Sequence record: OQ031074
Direction: 5' to 3' (one strand)
DNA length: 39,004 nt
From: Shigella phage SFP21A
Part shown: piece after piece, positions 4,343 through 38,900 of the stretch
How the letters are laid out: every line of letters starts with the position of its first letter
Position numbering within the stretch: position 1 is the first letter of the stretch
The notes under the pieces: model-generated
Seen by the model: the letters and a program-made list of their open reading frames with translations, nothing else
Database searches by the model: none
Told to the model about the DNA's origin: nothing
Made by a program: the position numbers and the translations under genes

Positions 4343-4365
4343 ACTTAACTATCACTATAGGGACT
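4343..4365 (+). promoter_or_regulatory. phage RNAP promoter (ACTTAACTATCACTATAGGGACT), +1 about 4360
   Basis: Match to the window's own 12-copy promoter consensus; shares TCACTATAGGGA with T7 class III promoters. Confidence 0.8.
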
Positions 4366-10700: not shown

Positions 10701-11632
10701 ACATCGTGGAGCACAGCCTGACTGGAAGTAAGCGTAAGTTTGATGACCGCTGGTTGAAGACCGCTGGTATTTCGGACGAGCAGTGGAAGGGCATTAAGTC
10801 CCTCATCCGTGAGTCAGTGACTCGTGGTCCAGACGGGAAGTACACCATCAAGGATAAGAAGGCGTTCAGTCAGGACCCAAGGGCTATGGACCTCTGGCGT
10901 ATGGGTGATGCCATCGCTGACGAGACCATGATTCGTCCGCACAAGCTGAGCAACATGGATGCCAAGGCGTATGGACCGATGGCGAAGACTGTCTTGCAGT
11001 TTAAGAACTTCGTTATCAAGTCCATCAACGGTCGAACCATGCGTACCTTCTACAATGCCACCAAGAACAACCGAGCGATGGACGCTGCGCTGTCAACGGT
11101 TATGTCTATGGGTCTGGCTGGAATGTACTACATGGCTCAGGCTCACATCAAGGCTTACGCTATGCAGGATGGTCGTGACCGAGAGTATCTGAAGCAAGCC
11201 CTTAACCCGACGATGATTGGCTATGCGGCTCTGTCCCGTAGCTCCCACTTGGGTGGACCACTGGGGGTAGCCAACATTCTGGGTGGAATCGCTGGGTATG
11301 AGGACACTAAGATGCTCCGCTCGTCAATCCTTCCGCGCTCACCTACCGAGAAACCCGAACGTGCTATTACCTATGGCGCTGCTAAGAGTGACCCGGTGAT
11401 GAATGTGGTTGGAAACTTCCTTGAGCAGGTTCCGGCTTTCGGCTACGCCGCTAACGTTGGGGCTTCTGCCTACAACTTGGCTGGATACCTGAAGGCTGAT
11501 ACCAGAGTGAACGAACGAGACTATATGACCGGGATGTATAACACTTTCCGAGAGCTGGTCCCGAACGACCCTATTACTCAGAAGCTCCTGTTGGGAACCT
11601 TTGAGGAACAAGGTATTCACATCAAGGACTAA
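7736..11632 (+). CDS. 16: internal virion protein D (gp16), ejection/core protein
   Basis: 1298 aa; long stretches recognisably like T7 gp16 (FGFGGAAEAE, EARETARN, SPTGMQSGASGK, RPEVKARVDE, ISHTDLFE, FLEARNLFDSDMSI, KTTKEMKD, LNGTTNYLLDA, MDLWRMGD, FKNFVIKS, LVPNDPITQ). The first ~130 aa are different, see findings. Confidence 0.9.
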   Translation: MATRGIRNNNIGNIRVSKDQWEGATGDDGSFVTFDTPDSGVRALAKNLMSYGRQGYDSIEKIINRWAPPSENDTQSYINSVVAATGIPATQSLDLTNPDVLASLSEAIGYHETGSRYDPEVYKLGVSRALSGAGGITPKTPPVSANVFDALTEGLKAKPKVALGENLPGVTGMNIEGQEPEAPNESFGEMFYKSTGETLDQRADRSTWFGFGGAAEAEVKNSLVGVAVRAGQTEDSLDVIGDVFNPTRWNNHKWSREELDQIRNAGVLPQYYGVITGGSPQNLTELINLALENQKLDAEKAKAGTGAQLAAGVIGAGVDPLTYVPIAGQVGKGGKLVNKMFTVAAQSGALAGASEIARTSVAGGDAHVAEAIMGGALFGGGMTAIGDALGKALGKSTNEFAGPATRLEARETARNVDGQDLSRLPIREGEETFSHQGVKFADVPNEPGSVRLEDGSILIGENPLNPKTRQVFDEVIEPERAAAGVNLGGLTEIGLKLLRSENPEIRGLAADLVRSPTGMQSGASGKIGTTASDVFERLRAVDHRFYNDIDDAVTEALKDPYFQTNFNRDTGAFRQDIYQRVALAIEDGSGNLKSELTPGELKVYDLLKNQFDAKREMMENPAMFGRVDAKSIFPGSRFKGTYVPHVYSNQMKELYIKELGSPEALQEAIKKSWLTSYASRPEVKARVDEALMEADPNLTPEGLAAAVDKYANDKAYGISHTDLFERSSVMEENINGLVGLENNNFLEARNLFDSDMSIILPNGQPFSVNSLREWDMDKIVPAYNRRVNGDIAIMAGTGKTTKEMKDAVETLMNRAGDDGKLKGEVSTLRDTLKILTGRARRDGADDAAFATVMRTMTDLSFFAKNAYMGVQNLTEIGGMLARGNVRALLHGVPMFRDLAFRNKKVGASEIKDLHNVIFGKELDDSIRPSKQDVIDRLRAYSALSKPSAIALGSAKYYTGELAVRSPFTKVLNGTTNYLLDAGRQGFLSDIVEHSLTGSKRKFDDRWLKTAGISDEQWKGIKSLIRESVTRGPDGKYTIKDKKAFSQDPRAMDLWRMGDAIADETMIRPHKLSNMDAKAYGPMAKTVLQFKNFVIKSINGRTMRTFYNATKNNRAMDAALSTVMSMGLAGMYYMAQAHIKAYAMQDGRDREYLKQALNPTMIGYAALSRSSHLGGPLGVANILGGIAGYEDTKMLRSSILPRSPTEKPERAITYGAAKSDPVMNVVGNFLEQVPAFGYAANVGASAYNLAGYLKADTRVNERDYMTGMYNTFRELVPNDPITQKLLLGTFEEQGIHIKD

Positions 11633-11650
11633 ACTATCACTATAGGAAAC
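11628..11650 (+). promoter_or_regulatory. phage RNAP promoter (ACTAAACTATCACTATAGGAAAC), +1 about 11645
   Basis: Consensus match; overlaps the stop of gene 16; followed by a 5' hairpin GGGAG..CTCCC. Confidence 0.8.
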
Positions 11651-14699: not shown

Positions 14700-14756
14700 G
14701 TGTTAGACTCAAGGTCATTACCACTATATGTAGTGGCCTTTATGATTAACACACAC
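14699..14756 (+). ncRNA. RNase III-type processing hairpin (conserved motif copy 1)
   Basis: AGACTCAAGGTCAT..CCACTA-TATG-TAGTGG..CCTTTATGATTAAC: upper stem, internal loop and lower stem. The same flanking motif recurs at 24397 and 31047. Confidence 0.55.
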
Positions 14757-17013: not shown

Positions 17014-17106
17014 CCTAATGAATACCTACGCATGAAATCTGCATGTATAAGCAGTAAGTAGTGCGTTAGGTATCTCTCGTAACTTAATGATTCTAAAGGG
17101 AAATGG

Positions 17107-17129
17107 ACTTAACTATCACTATAGGGAAG
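17107..17129 (+). promoter_or_regulatory. phage RNAP promoter after gene 19 (phi-OR-like), +1 about 17124
   Basis: ACTTAACTATCACTATAGGGAAG; position equivalent to T7 phi-OR near the right genome end. Confidence 0.75.
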
Positions 17130-17303
17130 ACCCCCGGTTGCTTATAGTAAAGACTCAATGAATAAGCATATGCACACTTTATGCAAGACCTTAGGAGGCA
17201 GACTCCTGAGTTCTTACCTAAGGTTAACACCGATGGAGAGGGTGATTGTAATCATCACACCCTCATAACTTAAGTAGACCCTAAGCGACAGGAGGTATGT
17301 AGC

Positions 17304-17462
17304 ATGGGTAAGACCAAAGCTGTTCTCAAAGCTCTGGCGACCAATAGAGCTACATACAGGTTTCTTGCTGCTGTTCTACTTGCTGCTGGCGTTACTGCTG
17401 GAAGTCAGTGGGCCTGGTGGGTCGAGACTCTCGTATGTACTCTGGTGTCTGAGTGTCATTAA
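17304..17462 (+). CDS. small hydrophobic protein (gene 19.5 position)
   Basis: 52-aa ORF (MGKTKAVLKALATNRATYRFLAAVLLAAGVTAG..) with strong RBS GGAGGT 7 nt upstream; downstream of the phi-OR-like promoter; last ORF before the repeat region. Confidence 0.45.
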   Translation: MGKTKAVLKALATNRATYRFLAAVLLAAGVTAGSQWAWWVETLVCTLVSECH

Positions 17463-17489
17463 TGCCATCATGGTAACAATCAACGAAAG

Positions 17490-18060
17490 ACGGACCTAAG
17501 GTCAGTTCATAGCTGACGCTACTCTACTGACCTTAGCTACTGTAGTCAAGGACTTTAGGTAATACCCTAATAGAAGCTCACTTAGGGTCATCCTACTCAC
17601 TGGTCTACCCTAGTGTCGCCTGACCTACGGTCCTTGACCTACAGTGGCTGAGGCCTACAGTAGGGACGATGAGTTTTGGACCAAAAGTTTGAGACCACAT
17701 CTCACAGTTCAAGAACCTCAAGTCTCCCCATAGGGTCACTTCCAGTCAGACCAAAGGCCACCACCCCTAGACCTTCGGTCTAAACCTCAAGTCATTGACC
17801 CGAAGTCGACCCGAAGTCTGGACCGATAGGGCCTATATCTTGTGGTTGGGACGATGGGTCGGGACTATATGTTGTGTCTCCGAGTCCCTATCTGTATCAG
17901 CCTCAAGTCATCACCTTCAGTCTCACTACCTACAGTCATCGACCATCGGTAAAGCCGCTACCTACAGTCATCGACCTACAGTCAGTAGACACCATGTTGA
18001 CCTACAGTTTATCAGAGTCCTAAGGTCTAGACTCACAGGTTATCACATCCGGTCCGTTTA
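17490..18060. repeat. non-coding terminal region: short direct/inverted repeat arrays flanking a putative collapsed direct terminal repeat (about 17700-17889)
   Basis: Inverted repeat CCTAAGGTCAG / CTGACCTTAGG (17495-17537). Repeated CCTACAGT/GACCTACAGT units (17620-17660, 17930-18015), CCTCAAGTC x3, tandem GACCCGAAGTC x2 (17800-17822), 19-bp CTACCTACAGTCATCGACC x2 (17926-17975). 17700-17889 begins TCTCACAG.. and ends ..TCCCT, like the T7 160-bp terminal repeat as recalled. Confidence 0.5.
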
Positions 18061-18210
18061 GCAGTCAGAGACCATAGCTGACTAGGGTTATTAGTTAGTG
18101 TCTTGCTAACTGGACTCTCATTATCCACAGTCCAGACTTAAAGTCAATCATCTGTAGTCATCCTTATATAGTCATTGGACTACTGTATAAATTACCATGA
18201 TAAATAGTTG

Positions 18211-18240
18211 TTGACAGTGGGTCTAACTTTTGGTTTAATA
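18211..18240 (+). promoter_or_regulatory. host sigma70-type early promoter (T7 A1-like)
   Basis: TTGACA (18211-18216), 17-nt spacer, TTTAAT (18234-18239). Surrounding sequence resembles the T7 A1 region (GTCTAAC..). Confidence 0.65.
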
Positions 18241-18354
18241 GCTTCCGTCAACACGACACGGCAAACACCGGATAGTGAAGACGCCGGGTCGGTCCGGTTA
18301 AGTAGTCAGCCTGTAAGACATACGAAAAACAGGCAACCGACAGAAAGAAAGTAG

Positions 18355-18385
18355 TTGACAAGCAGTAACGACTTAAAGTAGTATG
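18355..18385 (+). promoter_or_regulatory. host sigma70-type early promoter (T7 A2/A3-like)
   Basis: TTGACA (18355-18360), ~17-18 nt spacer, -10-like GTAGTAT, then ATGTACCACATCGAAACGACAGTGAG, very similar to the transcribed region of T7 A3 as recalled. Confidence 0.65.
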
Positions 18386-18535
18386 TACCACATCGAAACG
18401 ACAGTGAGGCCTAACACTGAAACAGGCTAGCGAGGCGACGACAGCCAAGCGAATGCTCTTTAACAATCTGGATAAACTCTTAATGTGCGCCGATAGTAAG
18501 CGATTAACTCAAGAGACTTGTTGGCTACTGCGGGT

Positions 18536-18578
18536 CAGGCTCAAGATGAGCGCCTAAGGTCTCTTTATGATAATCACT
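18536..18578 (+). ncRNA. putative RNase III site upstream of gene 0.3 (R0.3-like)
   Basis: GGCTCAAGATGAGCGCCTAAGGTCTCTTTATGATAATCACT resembles the T7 R0.3 region (CTCAAGG..CCCTTTATGATATTCACT) and the window's own hairpin motif. Confidence 0.4.
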
Positions 18579-18597
18579 CACTTAAAGGATACACATC

Positions 18598-19050
18598 ATG
18601 ATTTACACTAACGAACCAGCTAACGTCTTCTATGTGCTCGTGTCAGCCGCTCGTGCTGGACTGTCAGACATAGTGAACATGGGCCGTCAGTTAGACCTTA
18701 AGGCACTGCTACAAGCTGAGCCAGACTACTACGGTGTGCTCGAATGCACTGGGCTTACAGGATGCTACCGCGAGGAAGGGCAAGAGGTCGCCACTGAGGA
18801 GAGAACATATCGTGTGCGCTGTGAGTCCAAAGCTCAGGCTATCAACGTTGCGCGGCTGGCCTGCAATGACTTTGAGCAAGACTGCGTGATGGTCTACAAG
18901 TCTCAGACTCACACGGCTGGCCTGATGTTCTGCAAAGGTCTGGATGGCTACCGCACTGAGCGCCTGCACGGGTCATTCCAGCAAGTCGATGCGCCCAAGG
19001 GTGAATGCTTCACGAAAGACGCTGAAGGACGCTTCTGGGAGGTTGTGTAA
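18598..19050 (+). CDS. 0.3: S-adenosyl-L-methionine hydrolase/lyase (T3 gene 0.3-type anti-restriction protein)
   Basis: 150 aa; N-terminus MIYTNEPANVFYVLVSA.. and blocks TGCYRE, RVRCESKAQAINVARLACN, QDCVMVYKSQTHTAGLMF match the T3 SAMase as recalled; first gene after the sigma70 promoters; RBS AAAGGA. Confidence 0.75.
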   Translation: MIYTNEPANVFYVLVSAARAGLSDIVNMGRQLDLKALLQAEPDYYGVLECTGLTGCYREEGQEVATEERTYRVRCESKAQAINVARLACNDFEQDCVMVYKSQTHTAGLMFCKGLDGYRTERLHGSFQQVDAPKGECFTKDAEGRFWEVV

Positions 19051-19051
19051 G

Positions 19052-19255
19052 ATGGTTAACTCATACCCTAATCACATCAAGCCATGGATAACGGTTGATA
19101 TTGAGACCGTGGGCGACTCCAAGTTTGTGACCATACGGTCAAGCATACACGTTAACAAGGAGTTCAAGCTACCACACAGCTACAGCCTGAGCTGGGGAGA
19201 CTGGGAGATTCTGCGTGATGGCGCTTTCCTCAAGTACGCAAGGAGGTTCTACTGA
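19052..19255 (+). CDS. hypothetical early protein
   Basis: 67-aa ORF starting ATG 19052 immediately after the SAMase stop (MVNSYPNHIKPWITVDIE..); early-region position; no recognisable motif. Confidence 0.4.
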   Translation: MVNSYPNHIKPWITVDIETVGDSKFVTIRSSIHVNKEFKLPHSYSLSWGDWEILRDGAFLKYARRFY

Positions 19256-19380
19256 TGTACACGATAAGCTACAGCAGCGAGCAGGCGTTCTATGATGGTC
19301 TCGTCGAGCTGATGAAGCGCGGGGCCTGCTACACGGCTAACCACCATGCGCTAACCATAACGCTGACAGGCGGGTACTGA
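19255..19380 (+). CDS. hypothetical small early protein
   Basis: 41-aa ORF (MYTISYSSEQAFYDGLVELMKRGACYTANHHALTITLTGGY); start overlaps the upstream stop (TGATG); RBS AGGAGG at 19241-19246. Confidence 0.35.
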   Translation: MYTISYSSEQAFYDGLVELMKRGACYTANHHALTITLTGGY

Positions 19381-19424
19381 GTGTTAACTGATTGTCACTT
19401 AACCACAAGAAGGAAACACACGTA

Positions 19425-20159
19425 ATGAACGCACACGATAAAGTAATCATGAATAACCTGATGTCTCAACTTCACGCTATAATCTGCGAGGAGTGCTACA
19501 AGATTGAAGACCCGTTCGCTGGCATAGCTGGTCAGCCACGCTGGGGAGCCTTTGAGATACTGGCCCGTGAGCATGGCTACAAGCTGTTAGGTCTGGGACA
19601 CTTCGCCGCTGCCTTTGAGCATGAGGACCTGCCGGGATATGCAATAAAGGTGGGCTTCAAGAAGGATGACTCAGGCGCTGCATATGCGGCCTTCTGCCGA
19701 GAGAATGAGGGTCTGGCTGGACTTCCGGTCATCCATCTGGTCAAGCGCTTCAGCAGGGCTTACATGGTGGCTATGGACAAGTACCGCTCACTGAATGACA
19801 TTGGTGGTGACTACTGCCGGGATGGTGAGACCTACGAGCAGCGAGTATTAAACGTGTCATGGCGTGTGGTCAACGCGATAATAGACCATTGCGAGCAACC
19901 GTCTGAGGCCCTGAGCTGGTGGCTGGACCAAGACGCACGGGCTGAGTTTGCACACGTCGAGGCTCAGTATATCAAGGACCTTGCGCAGACCGCTAAGAAG
20001 ATTAACAGTTTCTTCTACGGGCTGGCATCATTCGACACTCACCGCGCTAACGTGATGGTCGACAATAACGGGCGCTTGATAATCACGGACCCAGTGTCAT
20101 GGACCGCAATCGACCATCAAGATGAGCTGCAAGGAAAGCTGAATGCAATAGCTGAGTGA
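19425..20159 (+). CDS. 0.7: serine/threonine protein kinase (gp0.7 homolog), kinase domain only
   Basis: 244 aa from ATG 19425 (RBS AAGGAAAC); blocks GLGHFAAAF, IKVGFKKDDSGAAYAAFCR, GLASFDTHRANVMV, ITDPVSW match the T7 gp0.7 kinase domain; lacks the ~110-aa C-terminal shut-off region of T7 gp0.7. Confidence 0.8.
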   Translation: MNAHDKVIMNNLMSQLHAIICEECYKIEDPFAGIAGQPRWGAFEILAREHGYKLLGLGHFAAAFEHEDLPGYAIKVGFKKDDSGAAYAAFCRENEGLAGLPVIHLVKRFSRAYMVAMDKYRSLNDIGGDYCRDGETYEQRVLNVSWRVVNAIIDHCEQPSEALSWWLDQDARAEFAHVEAQYIKDLAQTAKKINSFFYGLASFDTHRANVMVDNNGRLIITDPVSWTAIDHQDELQGKLNAIAE

Positions 20160-20165
20160 TAGACG

Positions 20166-20190
20166 AGAGGCCACTACATCTAGTGGTCTC
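20166..20190 (+). ncRNA. stem-loop after kinase gene (possible RNase III site)
   Basis: GAGAGGCCACTACATCTAGTGGTCTC: stem CCACTA/TAGTGG shared with the hairpin at 14720; no U-tract, so a processing site is more likely than a terminator. Confidence 0.35.
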
Positions 20191-20224
20191 AAAGATTATT
20201 ACTCACAACATATAGAGGTGAACT

Positions 20225-20314
20225 ATGAACATTGGTTACTGGGTGTGCCTATCTCCGGTAATATTCCTGATAGCCTTCGGTCTTCTGGACGCAATCAAGC
20301 GAGGGTCATTATAA
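20225..20314 (+). CDS. hypothetical 29-aa hydrophobic peptide
   Basis: MNIGYWVCLSPVIFLIAFGLLDAIKRGSL; RBS GAGGTGA 7 nt upstream; stop overlaps the next start (TAATG). Confidence 0.3.
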   Translation: MNIGYWVCLSPVIFLIAFGLLDAIKRGSL

Positions 20315-20508
20315 TGGGCTGGCTACTTCTGGTCATCGGCTATGGTCTGATAGCTGCAATCCTTGCTAAGGACATAACCAAGGCACGTAAAGTCTACCGC
20401 TTCCAGTACGTATCACTGGGCCGCTGGACTGTAAGACAACCAAACGGACGCTTTATGCGCAACCTCGCAAACGTCTGGGACATCGCAACCTTAGGGAGTA
20501 AACTGTAA
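20314..20508 (+). CDS. hypothetical small membrane protein
   Basis: 64 aa with N-terminal TM segment (MGWLLLVIGYGLIAAILA) and basic tail; stop overlaps the next start (TAATG). Confidence 0.4.
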   Translation: MGWLLLVIGYGLIAAILAKDITKARKVYRFQYVSLGRWTVRQPNGRFMRNLANVWDIATLGSKL

Positions 20509-20834
20509 TGAGCAAGTCATATGGGATTAATCTGGTTCATGCGCTGGACGCAGACCTTAACCTACTTTCAGCACTGGCTACAGGCTACCGTCACGGGACC
20601 TCAAGTCACACCATTCGTCAGCAGCAGGAGCGCGACCGGGTGCTGCAAGCAAGACTCCGGGCCGAGGGCCAAAAGTCCGAGCTGATGTGTCTGGCGTATG
20701 GTGGACGACCTCGCACTGACGATGGTAAACTTCTGGTCTCAGGCTGGAGGGCGATAGACCAGCGGTCCGACATCAAGCATACATCCAAAGGAGACTTCAG
20801 CCATCTCCATGCTAACCCACTGATATGCAAGTAG
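20508..20834 (+). CDS. hypothetical early protein
   Basis: 108-aa ORF; RBS GGGAG upstream; no recognisable motif; directly upstream of the RNAP promoter/leader. Confidence 0.5.
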   Translation: MSKSYGINLVHALDADLNLLSALATGYRHGTSSHTIRQQQERDRVLQARLRAEGQKSELMCLAYGGRPRTDDGKLLVSGWRAIDQRSDIKHTSKGDFSHLHANPLICK

Positions 20835-20839
20835 TTTGG

Positions 20840-20862
20840 ACTAAACTATCACTAAAGGACTC
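20840..20862 (+). promoter_or_regulatory. phage RNAP promoter variant (..CTAAACTATCACTAAAGGAC), +1 about 20857, upstream of gene 1
   Basis: Exact 14-nt match to the upstream consensus, but CACTAAAGG instead of CACTATAGG (T3-like -2 base); followed by a structured leader. Confidence 0.5.
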
Positions 20863-20937
20863 AAGGTCGAAAGACTCTAAGTCAGGACTGAAGTGAAAGA
20901 CTTTAGTGATAAGACAACAGTTATAAGGACTTTAAGT

Positions 20938-23619
20938 ATGAGCGTCATCTCAATTGACAAACACGACTTCTCTGATGTGTCGAATGCAATCGAACCTTTC
21001 AACGTACTGGCGGACCACTACGGACAAGACCTAGCAGTCAAACAGCTCCAGCTAGAGCATGAGGCATACACTGAAGGTGAGCGACGTTTCATTAAGAACC
21101 TTGAGCGTCAGACTGAGCGCGGGGAACTGGCAGACAATCAGGTTGCTAAGCCACTGATGCAAACGCTGGTCCCGACCCTCGCTAAGGCTGTGCGTGAGTG
21201 GCATGAAGGCCCGGACGGTAAGTCCTCGACCTCGCGTCCAAGCGTAGCGTTTACCATGCTAAGCACTGATGAGAAGGCCGTCAAAGACCGCACTCTGCGC
21301 ATCTCCGCCGAGTCTGCTGCGGTCATCATACTGAAAGTAATCCTCAGCAAGCTGGTAAAGCCTGAAGGCATTCCGATAACTCCTATGGCGTCCGCGATAG
21401 GTCGCACACTGGAAGATGAAATCCGCTTTGGTCGCATCCGTGAGCAGGAGCAGGAGCACTTCAAGAAGACCATAGCGGAGAACCTGAAGAAACGCGCTGG
21501 CGCAAGCTACAAGAAAGCCTACATGCAGGCGGTCGAGGCGTCTATGCTTGAGCAGGGGCAACTGGCTGACGCGTGGGGGACTTGGAGTCCGACCGAGGCA
21601 GTTCACGTAGGCATCAAGATGCTAGAGCTGGTCATCCAGTCATCGCAACTGGTCGAGCTGAAGCGCTACGGTGCGGGGAATGCAGCAGCGGACGTCGAGA
21701 TGGTTCACCTGTCTGACTTCTGGGTCAAGAAGATGGCTCAGCGTGGCTTCTCTCTGGCGGGAATTGCCCCAGTTTACCAGCCATGCGTCGTGCCACCTAA
21801 GCCGTGGACCGGGGTGGTTGGAGGTGGGTACTGGGCTAAAGGTCGCAGGCCACTACCTCTGATTCGCTTAGGGTCTAAGGCTGCGGTCCAGCGCTACGAA
21901 GACGTGTACATGCCTGAAGTGTACGAGGCCGTGAACATCATTCAGCAGACTCCTTGGAAGGTAAACAAGAAGGTGCTGGAAGTGGTTAACATGGTCGAGA
22001 AGCTGAATAACACGCCTATCGCTGACATCCCTCAGATGGAGCCGCTGAAGCCTGAAGACTATGCGGGTGAGACCGAGGAGGAGCTTAAGGCTTGGAAGAA
22101 ATCTGCGGCTGGCATCTATCGACGCGAGAAGGCACGACAGTCTCGCCGTTTATCGCTGAGCTTCATCGTCTCACAGGCTAACAAGTTCTCTCAGTTCAAG
22201 GCCATCTGGTTCCCGTACAACATGGACTGGCGAGGTCGTGTTTACGCTGTCCCGATGTTCAACCCTCAGGGCAACGATATGCAGAAGGGCCTGCTGACTC
22301 TGGCGGTAGGCAAGCCAATCGGTGCGGACGGCTTCAAATGGCTGAAGGTACACGGTGCAAACTGCGCGGGTGTCGATAAAGTCACCTTTGAGGAGCGCAT
22401 CAAGTGGGTTGAGGACAATCACGACAACATCCTCGCGACTGCTAAGAGTCCGATGGATAGCATTGACTGGTGGGGCCAGCTAGACTCTCCGTTCTGCTTC
22501 CTCGCGTTCTGCTTTGAGTATGCCGGGGTTATGCACCACGGGCTGAGCTACTCCTGCTCTCTGCCTATCGCGTTCGATGGGTCCTGCTCTGGGATTCAAC
22601 ACTTCAGCGCCATGCTCCGTGACCACGTTGGTGGACATGCGGTAAACCTAACGCCTTCCGGTAAGGTCCAAGACATCTACCGCATTGTGTCCGACCGGGT
22701 GGAAGAACAGCTCAAGGAACTGCTGGTCAACGGCAGTGACAACGAGGTGAAGACCTTCGAGGACAAGAAGACAGGCGAGATTACTGAACGTCTGGTCCTT
22801 GGGACCCGTGAGCTGGCCCGACAGTGGCTGACCTACGGGATGTCACGCTCGGTCACTAAACGCTCGGTCATGACTCTGGCCTACGGGTCGAAGGAATACG
22901 GGTTCGCGGACCAAGTGTTTGAGGACACCGTGATGCCAGCGATTGACAGTGGCAAGGGCGCAATGTTCACCGACCCAAGCCAAGCGTCTCGCTTCATGGC
23001 TAAGATGATATGGGACGCTGTGAGTGTGACCGTAGTGGCTGCGGTGGATGCAATGAAGTGGCTTCAGGGTGCGGCTAAACTGCTGGCTGCCGAGGTCAAG
23101 GACAAGAAGACCAAAGAGGTCCTTAAGCCTTGCCTCCCGGTTCACTGGGTAACGCCTGATGGATTCCCGGTCTGGCAGGAATACCGCAAGAAAGACACCA
23201 CACGTCTGAACCTCCTGTTCCTTGGGTCGTTCAACCTGCAACCGACAGTCAACAAAGGGTCGAAGAAAGAGCTGGATAAGCACAAGCAGGAATCCGGTAT
23301 CAGCCCTAACTTTGTACACTCACAGGACGGCAGTCACCTGAGGAAGACTGTAGTCCACACCCACCGCAAGTATGGCGTGATGTCATTCGCGGTGATTCAC
23401 GACAGCTTTGGAACCATCCCGGCAGACGCTGAGTTCCTGTTCAAGGGAGTCCGTGAGACGATGGTCGAGACCTACCGCGACAACGATGTGCTGCAAGACT
23501 TCTACGAGCAGTTCGCAGACCAGCTTCATGAGAGCCAGCGCGACAAGTTGCCAGAGCTACCGAAGCGCGGTAAACTGAACATCGAAGACATTCTGTTATC
23601 TGACTTTGCATTCGCCTGA
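20938..23619 (+). CDS. 1: DNA-directed RNA polymerase, single-subunit (T7 gene 1 homolog)
   Basis: ~893 aa from ATG 20938; extensive near-identity to T7 RNAP blocks (PCVVPPKPWTG, RYEDVYMPEVY, AIWFPYNMDWRGRVYAV, MFNPQGNDM, SPFCFLAFCFEYAG, AFDGSCSGIQHFSAMLRD, VTKRSVMTLAYGSKE, HDSFGT, C-terminal DFAFA). Confidence 0.97.
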   Translation: MSVISIDKHDFSDVSNAIEPFNVLADHYGQDLAVKQLQLEHEAYTEGERRFIKNLERQTERGELADNQVAKPLMQTLVPTLAKAVREWHEGPDGKSSTSRPSVAFTMLSTDEKAVKDRTLRISAESAAVIILKVILSKLVKPEGIPITPMASAIGRTLEDEIRFGRIREQEQEHFKKTIAENLKKRAGASYKKAYMQAVEASMLEQGQLADAWGTWSPTEAVHVGIKMLELVIQSSQLVELKRYGAGNAAADVEMVHLSDFWVKKMAQRGFSLAGIAPVYQPCVVPPKPWTGVVGGGYWAKGRRPLPLIRLGSKAAVQRYEDVYMPEVYEAVNIIQQTPWKVNKKVLEVVNMVEKLNNTPIADIPQMEPLKPEDYAGETEEELKAWKKSAAGIYRREKARQSRRLSLSFIVSQANKFSQFKAIWFPYNMDWRGRVYAVPMFNPQGNDMQKGLLTLAVGKPIGADGFKWLKVHGANCAGVDKVTFEERIKWVEDNHDNILATAKSPMDSIDWWGQLDSPFCFLAFCFEYAGVMHHGLSYSCSLPIAFDGSCSGIQHFSAMLRDHVGGHAVNLTPSGKVQDIYRIVSDRVEEQLKELLVNGSDNEVKTFEDKKTGEITERLVLGTRELARQWLTYGMSRSVTKRSVMTLAYGSKEYGFADQVFEDTVMPAIDSGKGAMFTDPSQASRFMAKMIWDAVSVTVVAAVDAMKWLQGAAKLLAAEVKDKKTKEVLKPCLPVHWVTPDGFPVWQEYRKKDTTRLNLLFLGSFNLQPTVNKGSKKELDKHKQESGISPNFVHSQDGSHLRKTVVHTHRKYGVMSFAVIHDSFGTIPADAEFLFKGVRETMVETYRDNDVLQDFYEQFADQLHESQRDKLPELPKRGKLNIEDILLSDFAFA

Positions 23620-23911: not shown

Positions 23912-24382
23912 ATGTTCTTTAACTCCGCACTGAAAGCACGTATCGCAGAACTTGAGTCACGACTGAAGATTAAAGACGCAACTAACGAGAGGCTCTTTGA
24001 GAAGATGGGAAAGTACGTCTCGAAGGTTTCAGAACTGGAGAAGCAGATTGAGTCTAAGCGTGAAGTCGAGCCGTTCCATGTTAAGCGTATGGTCGGCCTG
24101 AAGTTCAAGGCGCTATTCAACGGTCTCTACCAGCCGACTGAGTTCAAGACCGGGCCGGGACCATGCGGAAAGACGGTGACGCACTTCACCACAAGTCGAG
24201 ACGAACGGACCCTGACCATCCACCAGCACCACACGGATGGGTCCAGCAAGAGCTTCGAGTATCGACTGAGTGACATCGACGGTCGCATCCAGTACGACTA
24301 CGAGAACGTGATGGTCTACGGAGAAGAGGCAGAACGCGAGCGAGCACACTACGTCTTCCTGAGACGCCAGCGCTTCGCCTAA
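23912..24382 (+). CDS. hypothetical protein with N-terminal coiled-coil
   Basis: 156-aa ORF, RBS GAGG upstream; N-terminal heptad-like region (ARIAELESRLKIKDATNERLFEKMGKYVSKVSELEKQIE); no recognised catalytic motif. Confidence 0.55.
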   Translation: MFFNSALKARIAELESRLKIKDATNERLFEKMGKYVSKVSELEKQIESKREVEPFHVKRMVGLKFKALFNGLYQPTEFKTGPGPCGKTVTHFTTSRDERTLTIHQHHTDGSSKSFEYRLSDIDGRIQYDYENVMVYGEEAERERAHYVFLRRQRFA

Positions 24383-24400
24383 ACTATCACTATAGGATTA
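24378..24400 (+). promoter_or_regulatory. phage RNAP promoter (CCTAAACTATCACTATAGGATTA), +1 about 24395
   Basis: Consensus match; immediately followed by an RNase III-type hairpin. Confidence 0.75.
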
Positions 24401-26091: not shown

Positions 26092-26114
26092 CCTAAGCTA
26101 TCACTATAGGACAA
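26092..26114 (+). promoter_or_regulatory. phage RNAP promoter (CCTAAGCTATCACTATAGGACAA), +1 about 26109
   Basis: Consensus match just downstream of the TE-like terminator. Confidence 0.75.
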
Positions 26115-28831: not shown

Positions 28832-29044
28832 ATGATTAAGTTTATTGAATTTCTGGGTCGTCTGGTTGTGCGTGGCTATGCTCGTGCTGCGAGTGTGGAA
28901 CGAAAGGTCGCATCTGCTGCGGCTAAAGGTGCGGAAGCGGCTGCTGCGGAAGCGGATAGCCTGCGCATCAAGTCTCTGGACGCTGGCCTACGTGCCAAAG
29001 GTCTTGACAAGAAAGCCGAGCAACTGAAAGGCTTCTTCAGCTAA
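28832..29044 (+). CDS. hypothetical alanine-rich small protein
   Basis: 70-aa ORF with RBS AAGGAG; Ala/Lys-rich helical-looking sequence (KVASAAAKGAEAAAAEADSLRIKSLDAGLRAKGL). Confidence 0.5.
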   Translation: MIKFIEFLGRLVVRGYARAASVERKVASAAAKGAEAAAAEADSLRIKSLDAGLRAKGLDKKAEQLKGFFS

Positions 29045-29062
29045 ACTATCACCTTAGGGATG
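29040..29062 (+). promoter_or_regulatory. phage RNAP promoter variant (GCTAAACTATCACCTTAGGGATG), +1 about 29057
   Basis: Upstream half consensus; two changes in the -4/-3 region; precedes gene 4. Confidence 0.55.
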
Positions 29063-30867: not shown

Positions 30868-31032
30868 GTGTTTAAGAAACTTAAAGCCCGATACCACACG
30901 TTCATGTACAAGTGGTGGAACGAGGAGGCCAACTGTCTGTCCCGAATCCTTGGAGACCAGCGGTTTGACTCTAAGGCGTGGAAGCGAGCGAACCAGAAGT
31001 TCATGTATCACTTCCTGCGTATCGACTACTAA
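30868..31032 (+). CDS. hypothetical protein (gene 4.x position)
   Basis: 54 aa from GTG 30868 (VFKKLKARYHTFMYKWWNEE..), with GGAGGA 8 nt upstream; ends just before the next promoter. Confidence 0.4.
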   Translation: MFKKLKARYHTFMYKWWNEEANCLSRILGDQRFDSKAWKRANQKFMYHFLRIDY

Positions 31033-31050
31033 GCTATCACTGTAGGATAG
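31028..31050 (+). promoter_or_regulatory. phage RNAP promoter variant (ACTAAGCTATCACTGTAGGATAG), +1 about 31045
   Basis: Consensus upstream half; -2 T>G; immediately followed by an RNase III-type hairpin and gene 5. Confidence 0.6.
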
Positions 31051-35075: not shown

Positions 35076-35098
35076 ACTAAACTATCACTATAGGGACT
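35076..35098 (+). promoter_or_regulatory. phage RNAP promoter (ACTAAACTATCACTATAGGGACT), +1 about 35093
   Basis: Full consensus; precedes the 6.5/6.7/7/7.3/portal block. Confidence 0.8.
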
Positions 35099-36331: not shown

Positions 36332-37900
36332 ATGGCTGAACGTGAAGGCTTCGCTGCTGAAGGGGCCAAAGCGGTCTATGACCGACTGAAGAACGGACGA
36401 CAGCCGTATGAGACCCGTGCTCAGAACTGTGCTGCTGTCACCATACCGTCGCTGTTTCCGAAAGAGTCTGACAACTCCTCAACCGAGTATACGACTCCGT
36501 GGCAGGCGGTGGGCGCTCGCTGTCTGAACAACCTCGCTGCCAAGCTGATGCTGGCCCTGTTCCCACAAGCCCCGTGGATGAGACTTACCGTCTCTGAATA
36601 TGAGGCAAAGGCCCTGAGTCAAGACTCTGAGGCTGCTGCCCGTGTTGACGAGGGGCTGGCTATGGTGGAACGTGTTCTGATGGCCTATATGGAGACTAAC
36701 AGTTTCCGTGTCCCGCTGTTCGAGGCCCTTAAGCAGCTTATCGTCGCAGGCAACTGTCTGCTGTACGTTCCTGAACCTGAGCAAGGGACCTACAGTCCTA
36801 TGCGCATGTATCGTCTGGTCTCCTATGTAGTCCAGCGTGATGCGTTCGGCAACGTTCTACAGATTGTCACCCTAGACAAGGTGGCTTACAGCGCACTGCC
36901 GGAAGACGTTAAGTCTCAGCTAAACGCTGACGACTACGAGCCGGACACAGAGCTGGAAGTCTACACGCACATCTATCGTCAAGACGATGAGTACCTGCGC
37001 TATGAGGAAGTGGAGGGAATAGAGGTGAAGGGGACCGATGGTTCCTACCCGCTGAATGCCTGTCCTTACATCCCGGTACGAATGGTTCGACTGGATGGTG
37101 AAGACTATGGTCGTTCTTACTGCGAGGAATATCTGGGAGACCTGAACTCGCTGGAGACGATTACAGAAGCTATCACCAAAATGGCTAAGGTAGCCTCCAA
37201 AGTGGTGGGCCTCGTTAATCCGAACGGTATAACGCAACCTCGACGTCTAAACAAGGCGGCTACAGGTGAGTTCGTGGCTGGTCGCGTAGAGGACATCAAC
37301 TTCCTTCAACTGACGAAAGGTCAGGACTTTACGATTGCTAAATCGGTGGCTGACGCTATCGAGCAACGTCTAGGCTGGGCCTTCCTTCTTAATAGTGCTG
37401 TTCAGCGTAATGCTGAGCGAGTAACTGCTGAAGAGATTCGTTATGTTGCTGGCGAACTGGAGGCGACCTTAGGTGGCGTGTACTCTGTACAGTCTCAGGA
37501 GATGCAGTTACCTCTGGTCCGTGTGTTGCTGAACCAGCTTCAGTCCGCTGGCATGATTCCTGACCTTCCGAAAGAAGCGGTAGAGCCTACGGTCTCCACT
37601 GGTCTGGAAGCTCTGGGTCGTGGTCAGGACTTGGAGAAGCTGACTCAGGCGGTGAACATGATGACTGGACTTCAGCCTCTGGCTCAGGACCCGGACATTA
37701 ACTTGCCTACCCTTAAGCTGAGACTTCTCAACGCTCTGGGTATCGACACATCCGGTCTACTCCTGACGCAGGACGAGAAGATTCAGCGCATGGCTGAGCA
37801 GTCGTCCCAAAATGCAGTAGTCCAAGGTGCTGGTGTTGCTGGTGCTAACATGGGCGCTGCTGTTGGTCAAGGGGCTGGTGAGGATATGGCTCAGGCTTAA
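36332..37900 (+). CDS. 8: portal (head-to-tail connector) protein (gp8)
   Basis: 522 aa; long identity runs with T7 gp8 (YETRAQNCA, TIPSLFPK, TPWQAVGAR, LNNLA.KLMLALFP, SEYEAK, VDEGL.MVER, LFEALKQL, YRL.SYVVQRDAFGNVLQ, PYIP.RMVRLDGE.YGRSY.EEYLGDL, GLVNP.GITQPRRL, ERVTAEEIRYVA, LPLVRVLL, PKEAVEPT.STGLEA.GRGQDL). Confidence 0.97.
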   Translation: MAEREGFAAEGAKAVYDRLKNGRQPYETRAQNCAAVTIPSLFPKESDNSSTEYTTPWQAVGARCLNNLAAKLMLALFPQAPWMRLTVSEYEAKALSQDSEAAARVDEGLAMVERVLMAYMETNSFRVPLFEALKQLIVAGNCLLYVPEPEQGTYSPMRMYRLVSYVVQRDAFGNVLQIVTLDKVAYSALPEDVKSQLNADDYEPDTELEVYTHIYRQDDEYLRYEEVEGIEVKGTDGSYPLNACPYIPVRMVRLDGEDYGRSYCEEYLGDLNSLETITEAITKMAKVASKVVGLVNPNGITQPRRLNKAATGEFVAGRVEDINFLQLTKGQDFTIAKSVADAIEQRLGWAFLLNSAVQRNAERVTAEEIRYVAGELEATLGGVYSVQSQEMQLPLVRVLLNQLQSAGMIPDLPKEAVEPTVSTGLEALGRGQDLEKLTQAVNMMTGLQPLAQDPDINLPTLKLRLLNALGIDTSGLLLTQDEKIQRMAEQSSQNAVVQGAGVAGANMGAAVGQGAGEDMAQA

Positions 37901-37917
37901 CTATCACTATAGGAACA
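37895..37917 (+). promoter_or_regulatory. phage RNAP promoter (GCTTAACTATCACTATAGGAACA), +1 about 37912
   Basis: Consensus match; followed by a 9-bp perfect stem GGAACAACG / CGTTGTTCC (37912-37961) at the transcript 5' end. Confidence 0.75.
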
Positions 37918-38877: not shown

Positions 38878-38900
38878 ACTAAACTATCACTATAGGGAGA
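38878..38900 (+). promoter_or_regulatory. phage RNAP promoter for capsid gene (phi-10-like), +1 about 38895
   Basis: ACTAAACTATCACTATAGGGAGA with the full GGGAGACC initiating region; ~100-nt leader and RBS AGGAGA run to the window end, and the capsid ATG is at position 1. Confidence 0.85.

What the first reader, a model, noticed from the sequence alone, without database searches (positions are those of the whole stretch)
18598..19050. T3-type SAM hydrolase as first early gene in a genome whose promoters are not T3-type
The first early gene encodes a SAM hydrolase/lyase-type protein (T3 gene 0.3 family), which blocks restriction-modification by depleting SAM, not the Ocr DNA mimic of T7. The late-promoter specificity region here (ACTAAACTATC..) differs from both T7 (TAATACGACTC..) and T3 (AATTAACCCTC..). 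This suggests a mosaic early region or a separate lineage.
Basis: partly seen in the sequence, partly recalled or inferred. Interest (0 to 1): 0.45.

Follow-up and report, generated by a model that had tools for sequence, protein, structure and literature searches.

The report
SAM-degrading anti-restriction gene in K1F-like phage
The first gene of this T7-like (K1F-group) phage genome is an intact relative of the phage T3 enzyme that destroys S-adenosylmethionine to disarm host restriction; the gene is real, but the same arrangement is already published for closely related phages, so it is ordinary.

Summary
ORF 18598-19050 (+, 150 aa) is a full-length homologue of T3 gp0.3. It is 63% identical to it, matches PDB 7OCK/8BB1 at E=1e-57, and matches Pfam PF23780 S-AdoMet_lyase at E=1e-39. 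All known SAM-binding residues and nearly all MetK-contact residues are conserved. It is the first gene after the host-type early promoters. The 12 phage promoters share the consensus CTAAACTATCACTATAGG, which is neither T7-type nor T3-type.

The explanation is simple. The window is a circularly permuted Kayfunavirus (K1F-like) genome. Its RNA polymerase is 93.5% identical to K1F's and carries the K1F specificity loop (S754/N756/V761), which recognises ACTAT at -12..-8.

K1F itself has Ocr at this position. A relative whose RNAP N-terminal 300 aa are 98.7% identical (SAKp10309) carries Ocr plus a gp0.4-like gene exactly where this window has SAMase plus a DUF7300 ORF (18582-19254). SAMase identities across genera also disagree with RNAP identities.

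None of this is new. SAMase as gene 1 is annotated or published for the kayfunaviruses SFPH2, GW1, IME278 and B1, and for at least four other Studiervirinae genera. The enzyme is a lyase, not a hydrolase. Activity was not tested.

The parts
18211..18239 (+). Host (sigma-70)-type early promoter candidate, TTGACA-17-TTTAAT (A1/A2 equivalent)
   Evidence: Read directly from the sequence. The automatic scan missed it because its rule requires A at position 2 of the -10 hexamer. This is inference only.
18355..18384 (+). Host-type early promoter, TTGACA-18-TAGTAT (equivalent of T3/T7 promoter A3)
   Evidence: It matches 10 of 12 consensus positions in the scan. It lies inside the stretch 18344-18973, which aligns to T3 672-1275 at 66% nt identity; T3's A3 -35 hexamer is annotated at 683-688.
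18511..18565 (+). Leader hairpin at the position of T3's RNase III site R0.3
   Evidence: RNA fold of 18480-18600 gives MFE -33.8 kcal/mol and z = -2.4 against shuffles. The position corresponds to the R0.3 site annotated in T3 at 822-875. RNase III cleavage is inferred, not shown.
18582..19254 (+). Exchangeable two-gene module in the '0.3 slot' (SAMase + DUF7300 ORF)
   Evidence: Against the Ocr-bearing kayfunavirus SAKp10309, nt similarity runs 17104-18581 (88%) and 19255-21000 (91%), with nothing in between. SFPH2 is collinear at 96%. SAKp10309 has Ocr (168 aa) plus a gp0.4-like 51-aa gene in the gap. The junction sequences are shown.
18598..19050 (+). SAM lyase (SAMase) gene, T3 gene 0.3 family, 150 aa; SD AAAGGA at 18584-18589
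   Evidence: Sequence matches: Pfam PF23780 E=1e-39; PDB 7OCK/8BB1 E=1e-57; 62.9% identity to T3 gp0.3 and 96.7% to SFPH2 gp07. Conserved residues: G55, Y57, E68, Q94 and D95 (substrate binding), and I2, T4, N9, Q103, T104, H105 and T106 (MetK contacts) (residue roles).
19052..19255 (+). 67-aa DUF7300 ORF; its start lies 1 nt after the SAMase stop codon, and it is part of the swapped module
   Evidence: Pfam PF23974 E=1.4e-26 and PHROG 4445, function unknown. Its relatives are mostly in Acinetobacter and Pseudomonas phages, so it is not specifically linked to SAMase.
20938..23619 (+). Phage RNA polymerase gene (gene 1) with K1F-type specificity loop
   Evidence: It is 93.5% identical to K1F RNAP, 62.6% to T3 and 62.2% to T7. 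Loop residues are S754, N756 and V761, as in K1F. These are the substitutions that retarget T7 RNAP to ACTAT promoters (PMC11880802 Table 2).
4343..4365 (+). K1F-type phage promoter (-17..+6)
   Evidence: ACTTAACTATCACTATAGGGACT
11628..11650 (+). K1F-type phage promoter
   Evidence: ACTAAACTATCACTATAGGAAAC
17107..17129 (+). K1F-type phage promoter downstream of the terminase gene (phiOR-like position)
   Evidence: ACTTAACTATCACTATAGGGAAG; the large terminase subunit ORF ends at 17013.
20840..20862 (+). K1F-type phage promoter immediately upstream of the RNAP gene
   Evidence: ACTAAACTATCACTAAAGGACTC. The same placement is seen in K1F, SAKp10309, IME278 and SFPH2.
24378..24400 (+). K1F-type phage promoter
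   Evidence: CCTAAACTATCACTATAGGATTA
26092..26114 (+). K1F-type phage promoter
   Evidence: CCTAAGCTATCACTATAGGACAA
26943..26965 (+). K1F-type phage promoter
   Evidence: ACTAAACTATCACTTTAGGAACA
29040..29062 (+). K1F-type phage promoter
   Evidence: GCTAAACTATCACCTTAGGGATG
31028..31050 (+). K1F-type phage promoter
   Evidence: ACTAAGCTATCACTGTAGGATAG
35076..35098 (+). K1F-type phage promoter
   Evidence: ACTAAACTATCACTATAGGGACT
37895..37917 (+). K1F-type phage promoter
   Evidence: GCTTAACTATCACTATAGGAACA
38878..38900 (+). K1F-type phage promoter (best match to the full consensus)
   Evidence: ACTAAACTATCACTATAGGGAGA

Best explanation
The window is a complete, circularly permuted genome of a K1F-like T7-group phage (genus Kayfunavirus). 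Its leftmost gene (18598-19050) encodes a functional orthologue of the T3 gene 0.3 SAMase.

Proposed mechanism, inferred by homology to T3. When the leading end of the DNA enters the cell, the host RNA polymerase transcribes the gene from the A-type promoters (about 18211-18384). The leader is probably processed at an R0.3-like hairpin. The 150-aa protein is then made before any other phage protein. It cleaves S-adenosylmethionine to 5'-methylthioadenosine and homoserine lactone, which is a lyase reaction. Because the MetK-contact residues are conserved, it probably also binds and inhibits the host SAM synthetase MetK. The resulting collapse of the SAM pool disables SAM-dependent defences (type I and III restriction, BREX) before they can act on the unmodified phage DNA.

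The 'non-T3' promoters are simply K1F-type promoters read by this phage's K1F-type RNA polymerase. They have no functional connection to the SAMase gene, which host RNA polymerase transcribes.

Within the genus, the first-gene slot is an exchangeable anti-defence module. Some members carry SAMase (plus DUF7300), others carry Ocr (plus gp0.4-like), and a few carry both.

Shown here: homology, residue conservation, gene position, promoter and RNAP type, and module breakpoints. Inferred: enzymatic activity, MetK binding, and the anti-restriction phenotype.
For: Homology. Pfam PF23780 matches at E=1e-39. PDB 7OCK/8BB1 T3 SAMase matches at E=1e-57 along the full length. Identity to T3 gp0.3 is 62.9%.

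Functional residues. The SAM-binding residues are G55, Y57, E68, Q94 and D95. The MetK-contact or tail-stabilising residues are I2, T4, E6, N9, Q103, T104, H105 and T106. All are identical to T3; only K5 is changed, to N. Their roles come from PMC7877911 and bioRxiv 10.1101/2023.02.27.530186.

Position. The gene follows sigma-70-like promoters and a hairpin that align with T3's A3 promoter and R0.3 site.

Lineage.
- The genome is 90-94% nt identical over 91-96% of the 22-kb query (window 17000-39004) to Cronobacter phage GW1 and Shigella phages SFP21B and ESh23.
- The early region is 95% identical to Kayfunavirus SFPH2.
- The RNAP is 93.5% identical to K1F's, with K1F loop residues.
- K1F's own promoters read CTTAACTATCACTATAGG and CTAAACTATCACTATAGG.
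- The K1F loop maps to ACTAT.

Module swap. Breakpoints lie at 18581/18582 and 19254/19255 against SAKp10309, which has Ocr, while the RNAP N-termini are 98.7% identical. K1F has Ocr. IME278 has both genes. About 33 phage records carry a SAMase at least 80% identical, against about 220 records with an RNAP at least 80% identical.

Prior reports. SAMase is noted as unique to SFPH2 relative to SH4 and Dev2 (PMC6302001). ORF1 of Kayfunavirus B1 is annotated as a SAM lyase (PMC12785254).
Against: No biochemical or genetic test exists for this allele or for any kayfunavirus allele that I could find.

One MetK-contact residue differs (K5N). The natural host, and therefore its MetK, is unknown, so MetK inhibition is less certain than catalysis.

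The R0.3-like hairpin is only modestly more stable than shuffled sequence (z = -2.4).

Only one early promoter passed the automatic scan.

In T3, E68Q alone leaves 20-30% activity. Residue conservation is therefore supportive, not proof of activity.
Confidence: 0.9

Rival explanations
1. The gene was recently captured directly from a T3-like (Teetrevirus) phage, making this genome a fresh T3 x K1F hybrid.
For: The nearest SAMase group outside Kayfunavirus is the T3 / T7M / Klebsiella teetrevirus group, at 60-64% identity. The protein core (residues 66-110) is 80% identical to T3. T3's SAMase is closer to this one (63%) than to KP32's (42%), although T3's RNAP is closer to KP32's (74% against 64%). 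Some lateral movement between these lineages therefore did occur.
Against: Identity to T3 is only 63% aa and 66% nt. That is the same as the RNAP divergence (62.6%), so no recent transfer is indicated. The identity distribution has a gap between 80% and 64%. The allele is shared at 86-97% identity by about 33 kayfunavirus-type records. The C-terminal 24 residues resemble Klebsiella-phage alleles (65-71%) more than T3 (54%).
Confidence: 0.05
2. SAMase was already present in the common ancestor of Studiervirinae and was inherited vertically here. Ocr-bearing kayfunaviruses such as K1F are the ones that replaced it.
For: SAMase occupies the same first-gene position in at least five genera. Divergence from T3 equals RNAP divergence. 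The homology with T3 extends upstream into the A3 promoter and leader.
Against: Pairwise identities are incongruent with the RNAP. KP32 and phi1_146026 have RNAPs 98% identical but SAMases only 49% identical. T3-KP32 is 74% for RNAP and 42% for SAMase. Only about 15% of kayfunavirus-type records carry the gene. Genomes with nearly identical RNAPs differ in slot content. Vertical descent alone does not explain this distribution. The direction of replacement was not resolved here.
Confidence: 0.3
3. The protein is a SAM-dependent methyltransferase, as RefSeq and PHROG label its homologues.
For: RefSeq re-annotations of T3, SFPH2, GW1 and others, and PHROG 2226, use the name 'SAM-dependent methyltransferase'.
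Against: The only Pfam hit is the S-AdoMet lyase family. The T3 member is experimentally a SAM-cleaving lyase with a beta-barrel fold unrelated to Rossmann methyltransferases. The original GenBank records call it S-adenosyl-L-methionine hydrolase. The label is an annotation error.
Confidence: 0.01
4. The protein is a catalytically weakened variant that acts mainly by sequestering MetK rather than by cleaving SAM.
For: In T3, the catalytically dead E68Q/Q94A mutant keeps partial anti-BREX activity through MetK binding. The MetK-contact residues are conserved here.
Against: All residues known to matter for SAM binding and catalysis are also conserved: G55, Y57, E68, Q94 and D95. Nothing suggests loss of activity.
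Confidence: 0.04

Closest known systems
Bacteriophage T3 gp0.3 SAMase (S-adenosylmethionine lyase; PDB 7OCK, 8BB1; NP_523296)
   Same: The length is the same to within 2 residues, and identity is 63% from end to end. All characterised SAM-binding residues and nearly all MetK-contact residues are identical. It occupies the same position as the first gene after the host-type promoters A1-A3 and the R0.3 leader.
   Different: 37% of residues differ, and there is a 2-residue deletion in the C-terminal tail, which resembles Klebsiella-phage alleles instead. K5 is N. T3's Shine-Dalgarno sequence for the internal start at M28 is not conserved. The T3 gene sits in a Teetrevirus backbone with T3-type promoters; this one sits in a Kayfunavirus backbone.
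SAMase (gene 1) of published kayfunaviruses: Shigella phage SFPH2 gp07, Cronobacter phage GW1, Enterobacter phages IME278, EP1 and B1
   Same: Protein identity is 94-97%. The slot is the same, and the flanking sequence is 92-96% nt identical to SFPH2, GW1 and EP1, and about 85-90% to IME278. The gene is already annotated as S-adenosyl-L-methionine hydrolase or lyase and is mentioned in PMC6302001 and PMC12785254.
   Different: Differences are only at allele level. Downstream small ORFs vary: SFPH2 has an extra 115-aa ORF before the kinase gene, and IME278 additionally carries a short Ocr.
T7/K1F gp0.3 Ocr (DNA mimic)
   Same: It occupies the same genomic slot and has the same expression timing. 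It has the same biological role, neutralising type I R-M and BREX. In close relatives it replaces this gene exactly.
   Different: The sequence and mechanism are unrelated: Ocr is a DNA mimic that binds the enzymes, whereas SAMase destroys a cofactor. No Ocr homologue is present in this window.
Svi3-3 / Orf1 environmental phage SAM lyases (PDB 6ZM9 family, eLife 2021)
   Same: The reaction is the same, and the same few substrate-binding residues are conserved: Gly, Tyr, Glu and Gln.
   Different: Sequence similarity to the T3 group is barely detectable. Svi3-3 is a trimer with its active sites at subunit interfaces, whereas the T3-type enzyme is a monomeric beta-barrel when bound to MetK. Neither Svi3-3 nor Orf1 gave an anti-BREX effect in the T3 study. 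None of these comparisons was tested here against this protein.

Membership tests
T3 gene 0.3-type SAM lyase (Pfam PF23780 S-AdoMet_lyase) | Significant full-length sequence similarity to T3 gp0.3 | tested here: met
   phmmer against PDB 7OCK/8BB1 gives E=1.2e-57 over residues 1-149 of 150. BLASTP identity is 62.9% at E=3e-69.
T3 gene 0.3-type SAM lyase (Pfam PF23780 S-AdoMet_lyase) | Scores above the curated family threshold | tested here: met
   135.8 bits against a gathering cut-off of 28, covering profile positions 1-132 of 133. PHROG 2226 matches at E=6e-47.
T3 gene 0.3-type SAM lyase (Pfam PF23780 S-AdoMet_lyase) | Conserved substrate-binding residues (T3 numbering G55, Y57, E68, Q94, D95; equivalent to Svi3-3 G56, Y58, E69, Q104, E105) | tested here: met
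   All five are identical in the pairwise alignment. E68 and Q94-D95 are invariant in the 6-genus alignment.
T3 gene 0.3-type SAM lyase (Pfam PF23780 S-AdoMet_lyase) | MetK-binding surface (I2, T4, N9, Q103, T104, T106; H105-E6 tail lock) | tested here: met
   All are identical to T3 except the neighbouring K5, which is N. Actual binding was not tested.
T3 gene 0.3-type SAM lyase (Pfam PF23780 S-AdoMet_lyase) | First gene at the leading genome end, transcribed by host RNA polymerase | tested here: met
   The gene lies downstream of sigma-70-like promoters aligned to T3 A3, and no phage promoter lies between 17129 and 20840. Early transcription itself is inferred.
T3 gene 0.3-type SAM lyase (Pfam PF23780 S-AdoMet_lyase) | Cleaves SAM to MTA plus homoserine lactone; relieves type I R-M and BREX restriction | not testable with these tools
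   This needs an enzyme assay and plating experiments.
Genus Kayfunavirus (K1F-like Studiervirinae) | Genome-wide nucleotide similarity to genus members | tested here: met
   Identity is 90-94% over 91-96% of a 22-kb query to GW1, SFP21B and ESh23. SFPH2 and IME278 carry the Kayfunavirus taxonomy line.
Genus Kayfunavirus (K1F-like Studiervirinae) | K1F-type RNA polymerase and cognate promoter (ACTAT at -12..-8) | tested here: met
   The RNAP is 93.5% identical to K1F's. The loop has S754, N756 and V761. Twelve promoters match K1F's own promoters.
Genus Teetrevirus (T3-like) | T3-type RNAP (D748) and AATTAACCCTCACTAAAGGGAGA promoters | tested here: not met
   The RNAP is 62.6% identical to T3's and has N748. 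None of the 12 promoters has the T3-type ACCCT at -12..-8; one site, 20840-20862, does carry the CACTAAAGG core.
Ocr (T7 gp0.3 DNA mimic) | Sequence similarity to T7 or K1F Ocr | tested here: not met
   tblastn of four Ocr proteins against the whole window gives a best E of 1.7.
SAM-dependent methyltransferase (RefSeq/PHROG label of homologues) | Methyltransferase domain | tested here: not met
   The Pfam scan returns only the lyase family PF23780 and no methyltransferase family at E<=0.01.

The most novel reading that the evidence does not exclude
The stretch between the conserved R0.3 leader and the next conserved small gene (window 18582-19254) may be a dedicated recombination slot in K1F-like phages. 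Two-gene anti-defence cassettes (SAMase+DUF7300, Ocr+gp0.4-like, or both in tandem) would be exchanged there between otherwise near-identical genomes and across genera.

The SAMase allele itself may be chimeric, with a T3-like core and a Klebsiella-phage-like C-terminal tail.

Cassette choice might track the host's defence repertoire. For example, swapping Ocr for SAMase might avoid Ocr-triggered defences; this last point comes from my own knowledge and was not tested.
Probability: 0.3. Interest if true: 0.3.

Novelty: already known. Interest (0 to 1): 0.12.

Why it matters
It matters little for discovery. SAMase as the first gene of T7-group phages has been textbook knowledge since the 1960s. 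Its presence in K1F-like phages is already annotated and mentioned in print.

The finding has practical value in three ways.
1. It corrects a widespread mis-annotation ('SAM-dependent methyltransferase', 'hydrolase').
2. Kayfunaviruses differ in their anti-restriction gene (SAMase, Ocr or both). This is relevant when choosing phages for therapy against hosts with type I R-M or BREX.
3. The sharply bounded SAMase/Ocr swap is a clean natural example of modular exchange of anti-defence genes, which a systematic survey could exploit.

Tried and rejected
1. Is DUF7300 a dedicated SAMase partner? tblastn shows most of its relatives in Acinetobacter (Friunavirus-type) and Pseudomonas phages, and only about 14 kayfunavirus-type records at 60% identity or more. 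There is no specific linkage, so I rejected the idea.

2. Is T3's internal in-frame start (M28) conserved? The Met is present, but T3's GAGGTG Shine-Dalgarno sequence is not. No claim is made.

3. Is a second anti-restriction gene (Ocr) hidden elsewhere in the window, as in IME278? None was found.

4. Are the antisense and overlapping ORFs inside 18598-19050 real (for example 18709-18969 on the - strand, 86 aa)? I treated them as mechanical. The + strand frame has a strong family match along its whole length.

5. Is the site at 14717 (CATTACCACTATATGTAG) a 13th promoter? It has 3 mismatches in the core and lacks the upstream ACTAA, so I excluded it.

6. Structure prediction and the large protein-database searches were not run. 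A 63% identical solved structure already settles the fold and family. The alignment I had included proteins from fetched loci, which the structure tool would not accept.

7. One literature search failed because a term was too short. Two scripts failed or misread the file layout before being corrected.
Full report
**What is at the coordinates**

The ORF listing gives an ATG-initiated ORF at 18598-19050 on the + strand, 150 aa. An AAAGGA ribosome-binding site lies 8 nt upstream.

The protein matches Pfam PF23780, 'S-Adenosylmethionine lyase family'. The match has E=1.1e-39 and 135.8 bits against a curated cut-off of 28, and covers 132 of 133 profile positions. It also matches PHROG 2226 at E=6e-47.

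Against all PDB sequences, the only real hit is the T3 SAMase chain of entries 7OCK and 8BB1. That hit has E=1.2e-57 and aligns residues 1-149 to 1-151. BLASTP against T3 gp0.3, taken from NC_003298, gives 62.9% identity.

**Is the protein likely to be active?**

I took the functional residues from the literature.
- *Substrate binding.* The Svi3-3 structure paper identifies Gly56, Tyr58, Glu69, Gln104 and Glu105 as the residues that hold SAM in the reactive conformation. It shows that T3 E68 is the equivalent of Glu69. It also shows that the whole family are lyases that make MTA and homoserine lactone, not hydrolases (PMC7877911).
- *Catalysis and MetK contacts.* The T3 BREX/MetK study shows that E68Q/Q94A is catalytically dead. 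It shows that the MetK contacts are I2, T4, N9, Q103, T104 and T106, with H105-E6 locking the N-terminal tail. It reports T4, N9, Q103, T104 and H105 as strictly conserved among homologues (bioRxiv 10.1101/2023.02.27.530186).

In my alignment, G55, Y57, E67, E68, Q94, D95, I2, T4, E6, N9, Q103, T104, H105 and T106 are all identical to T3. Only K5 differs (N). I therefore infer an active SAM lyase that probably also binds MetK. This is inference from conservation; nothing was assayed.

**Is it the first early gene?**

The window is a circular permutation of a T7-type genome.
- The large terminase subunit ORF ends at 17013.
- K1F bases 1-190 align to about 17700-17900. The left end of the genome therefore lies near 17700.
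- Between that point and 18598 there are only short, repeat-rich stretches.
- There is a sigma-70-type promoter at 18355-18384 (TTGACA-18-TAGTAT). It lies inside the stretch 18344-18973, which aligns at 66% nt identity to T3 672-1275, where T3's A3 promoter is annotated.
- I read a second promoter candidate, TTGACA-17-TTTAAT, at 18211-18239 by eye.
- A hairpin lies at 18511-18565, at the position of T3's R0.3 RNase III site. It is modestly stable (z = -2.4).
- No phage-type promoter lies between 17129 and 20840.

The gene is therefore in the classical 0.3 position, to be transcribed by host RNA polymerase.

**The promoters**

Twelve sites align into the consensus gaCTAAACTATCACTATAGGaa. In register, -17..-8 reads ACTAAACTAT here, TAATACGACT in T7 and AATTAACCCT in T3. 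T3's annotated promoters were read from L001.

The explanation is the lineage.
- The RNA polymerase (20938-23619) is 93.5% identical to K1F's, but only 62.6% to T3's and 62.2% to T7's.
- K1F's own promoters read CTTAACTATCACTATAGG and CTAAACTATCACTATAGG.
- The specificity loop carries S754, N756 and V761, as in K1F. T7 and T3 have Q, R and I at these positions.
- A 2025 NAR paper tabulates exactly these three substitutions as the K1F-loop graft that retargets T7 RNAP to ACTAT at -12..-8 (PMC11880802).

At the genome level, the 22-kb query (window 17000-39004) is 90-94% identical over 91-96% of its length to Cronobacter phage GW1 and Shigella phages SFP21B and ESh23. The early region is 95% identical to Kayfunavirus SFPH2. 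The window is a Kayfunavirus.

**Mosaic or separate lineage? Both**

*1. Separate lineage.* This is shown above.

*2. Mosaic within the genus.*
- K1F, the type species, carries an Ocr-like gene 0.3.
- Klebsiella phage SAKp10309 has an RNAP whose N-terminal 300 aa are 98.7% identical to this window's.
- Against SAKp10309, nucleotide similarity runs 17104-18581 (88%) and 19255-21000 (91%), with nothing in between.
- The gap holds SAMase plus a 67-aa DUF7300 ORF here. In SAKp10309 it holds Ocr (168 aa) plus a 51-aa protein that is 39% identical to T7 gp0.4.
- The left junction falls between the leader hairpin and the ribosome-binding site. The right junction is the start codon of the next conserved small gene.
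- Enterobacter phage IME278, whose RNAP is 99.6% identical, has SAMase and a short Ocr in tandem.
- By record counts, about 220 phage records have an RNAP at least 80% identical to this one. Only about 33 have a SAMase at least 80% identical. The next SAMase band starts at 64%. These counts include GenBank/RefSeq duplicates.

*3. Incongruence across genera.* SAMase identities do not follow RNAP identities.

| Pair | RNAP identity | SAMase identity |
|---|---|---|
| window vs T3 | 64% | 63% |
| T3 vs KP32 | 74% | 42% |
| KP32 vs phi1_146026 | 98% | 49% |

Within the protein, the core (residues 66-110) is 80% identical to T3. The last 24 residues are closer to Klebsiella-phage alleles (65-71%) than to T3 (54%). 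This is suggestive of an intragenic mosaic, but the segment is short.

The SAMase gene has therefore moved laterally among Studiervirinae. The 63% aa and 66% nt identity to T3 rules out a recent capture from T3 itself.

**Why this is ordinary**

SAMase homologues are found in 499 phage records. In every genus I opened, the gene is the first early gene:
- Teetrevirus T3
- Kayfunavirus SFPH2
- Przondovirus KP32
- Pektosvirus PP47 (also stated in PMC7693777)
- Chatterjeevirus ICP3

The same holds for the unclassified Klebsiella phage phi1_146026, whose RNAP is 98% identical to KP32's; the short CDSs annotated upstream of its SAMase fall in the terminal non-coding region.

Each of these has its own RNAP. 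The gene is read by the host polymerase, so there is no reason for it to co-vary with phage promoter specificity.

For kayfunaviruses specifically, two papers already report it. The SFPH2 paper notes S-adenosyl-L-methionine hydrolase as a gene unique to SFPH2 relative to SH4 and Dev2 (PMC6302001). The phage B1 paper lists ORF1 as a SAM lyase that is 96% identical to IME278's (PMC12785254).

**Mechanism**

*Shown here:* family membership, conserved functional residues, leading-end position behind host-type promoters, absence of Ocr, and K1F-type transcription machinery.

*Inferred by homology to T3:* immediate early expression; cleavage of SAM to MTA plus homoserine lactone; binding and inhibition of MetK; and consequent failure of SAM-dependent type I restriction and BREX.

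**Verdict**

The finding is an already known feature in an already known kind of phage.

The only mildly interesting residue is the sharply bounded SAMase/Ocr cassette exchange and the possible chimeric allele. Both would need a systematic survey to become a result.

Noticed in passing
window 19052-19255 (+): A 67-aa DUF7300 (PF23974) ORF starts 1 nt after the SAMase stop codon and belongs to the same swapped module. Its relatives are mainly early-region small ORFs of Acinetobacter (Friunavirus-type) podophages and Pseudomonas M6-like siphophages. Its function is unknown.
   Followed up: partly
window 18598-19050; L001 901-1359; L006 2000-2452: RefSeq re-annotations and PHROG 2226 name this family 'SAM-dependent methyltransferase'. 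That is wrong: the family are SAM lyases. One 2025 paper on phage B1 describes the enzyme as cleaving S-adenosylhomocysteine, which is also inaccurate.
   Followed up: yes
window 20840-20862 (+), just upstream of the RNAP gene at 20938: A phage-type promoter (ACTAAACTATCACTAAAGGAC, with an A in place of T in the core) sits directly in front of the phage RNA polymerase gene. The same is seen in K1F, SAKp10309, IME278 and SFPH2. This would allow positive autoregulation of gene 1. In the T3 and T7 annotations fetched here, gene 1 is preceded only by host-type promoters.
   Followed up: partly
window 19392-20159 (+): The gene 0.7-type protein kinase is only 255 aa, against 369 aa in T3 and 359 aa in T7. 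It aligns only to the N-terminal kinase part (T3 residues 60-226). The C-terminal part present in T3 and T7 is missing.
   Followed up: no
window 17600-18180: The window is a circular permutation; the genome ends fall near 17700. The region is full of short, imperfect direct repeats (ACCTACAGTCATCGACCTACAGT and related, 4 copies; GACCCGAAGTC in tandem). This is typical of T7-group terminal and concatemer-junction regions. The exact terminal repeat was not defined.
   Followed up: partly
window 20893 vs 20938: The mechanical ORF for the RNA polymerase starts at a GTG at 20893 (908 aa). Alignment to K1F, T3 and T7 starts at the ATG at 20938 (893 aa), which is the likely true start.
   Followed up: partly
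L007 (KP32_195) vs L008 (phi1_146026): These two Klebsiella phages have RNA polymerases 98% identical but SAMases only 49% identical. SAMase alleles are therefore exchanged or replaced between near-identical Przondovirus backbones as well.
   Followed up: partly
one search hits; L002 1114-1623: The N-terminal 98 aa of K1F Ocr are 82-94% identical to Ocr genes in Klebsiella phages and in SP6-like Vectrevirus K1E. K1F, SAKp10309 and similar phages carry a roughly 55-70-aa C-terminal extension that T7 Ocr and IME278 Ocr lack. The Ocr module is thus even more mobile across genera than SAMase.
   Followed up: no
HG813241 Cronobacter phage Dev2 gp0.2 (H36): Dev2 carries only a partial SAMase match: 62% of the length at 57% identity, annotated as hypothetical. 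This may be a decayed or truncated allele in the same slot.
   Followed up: no
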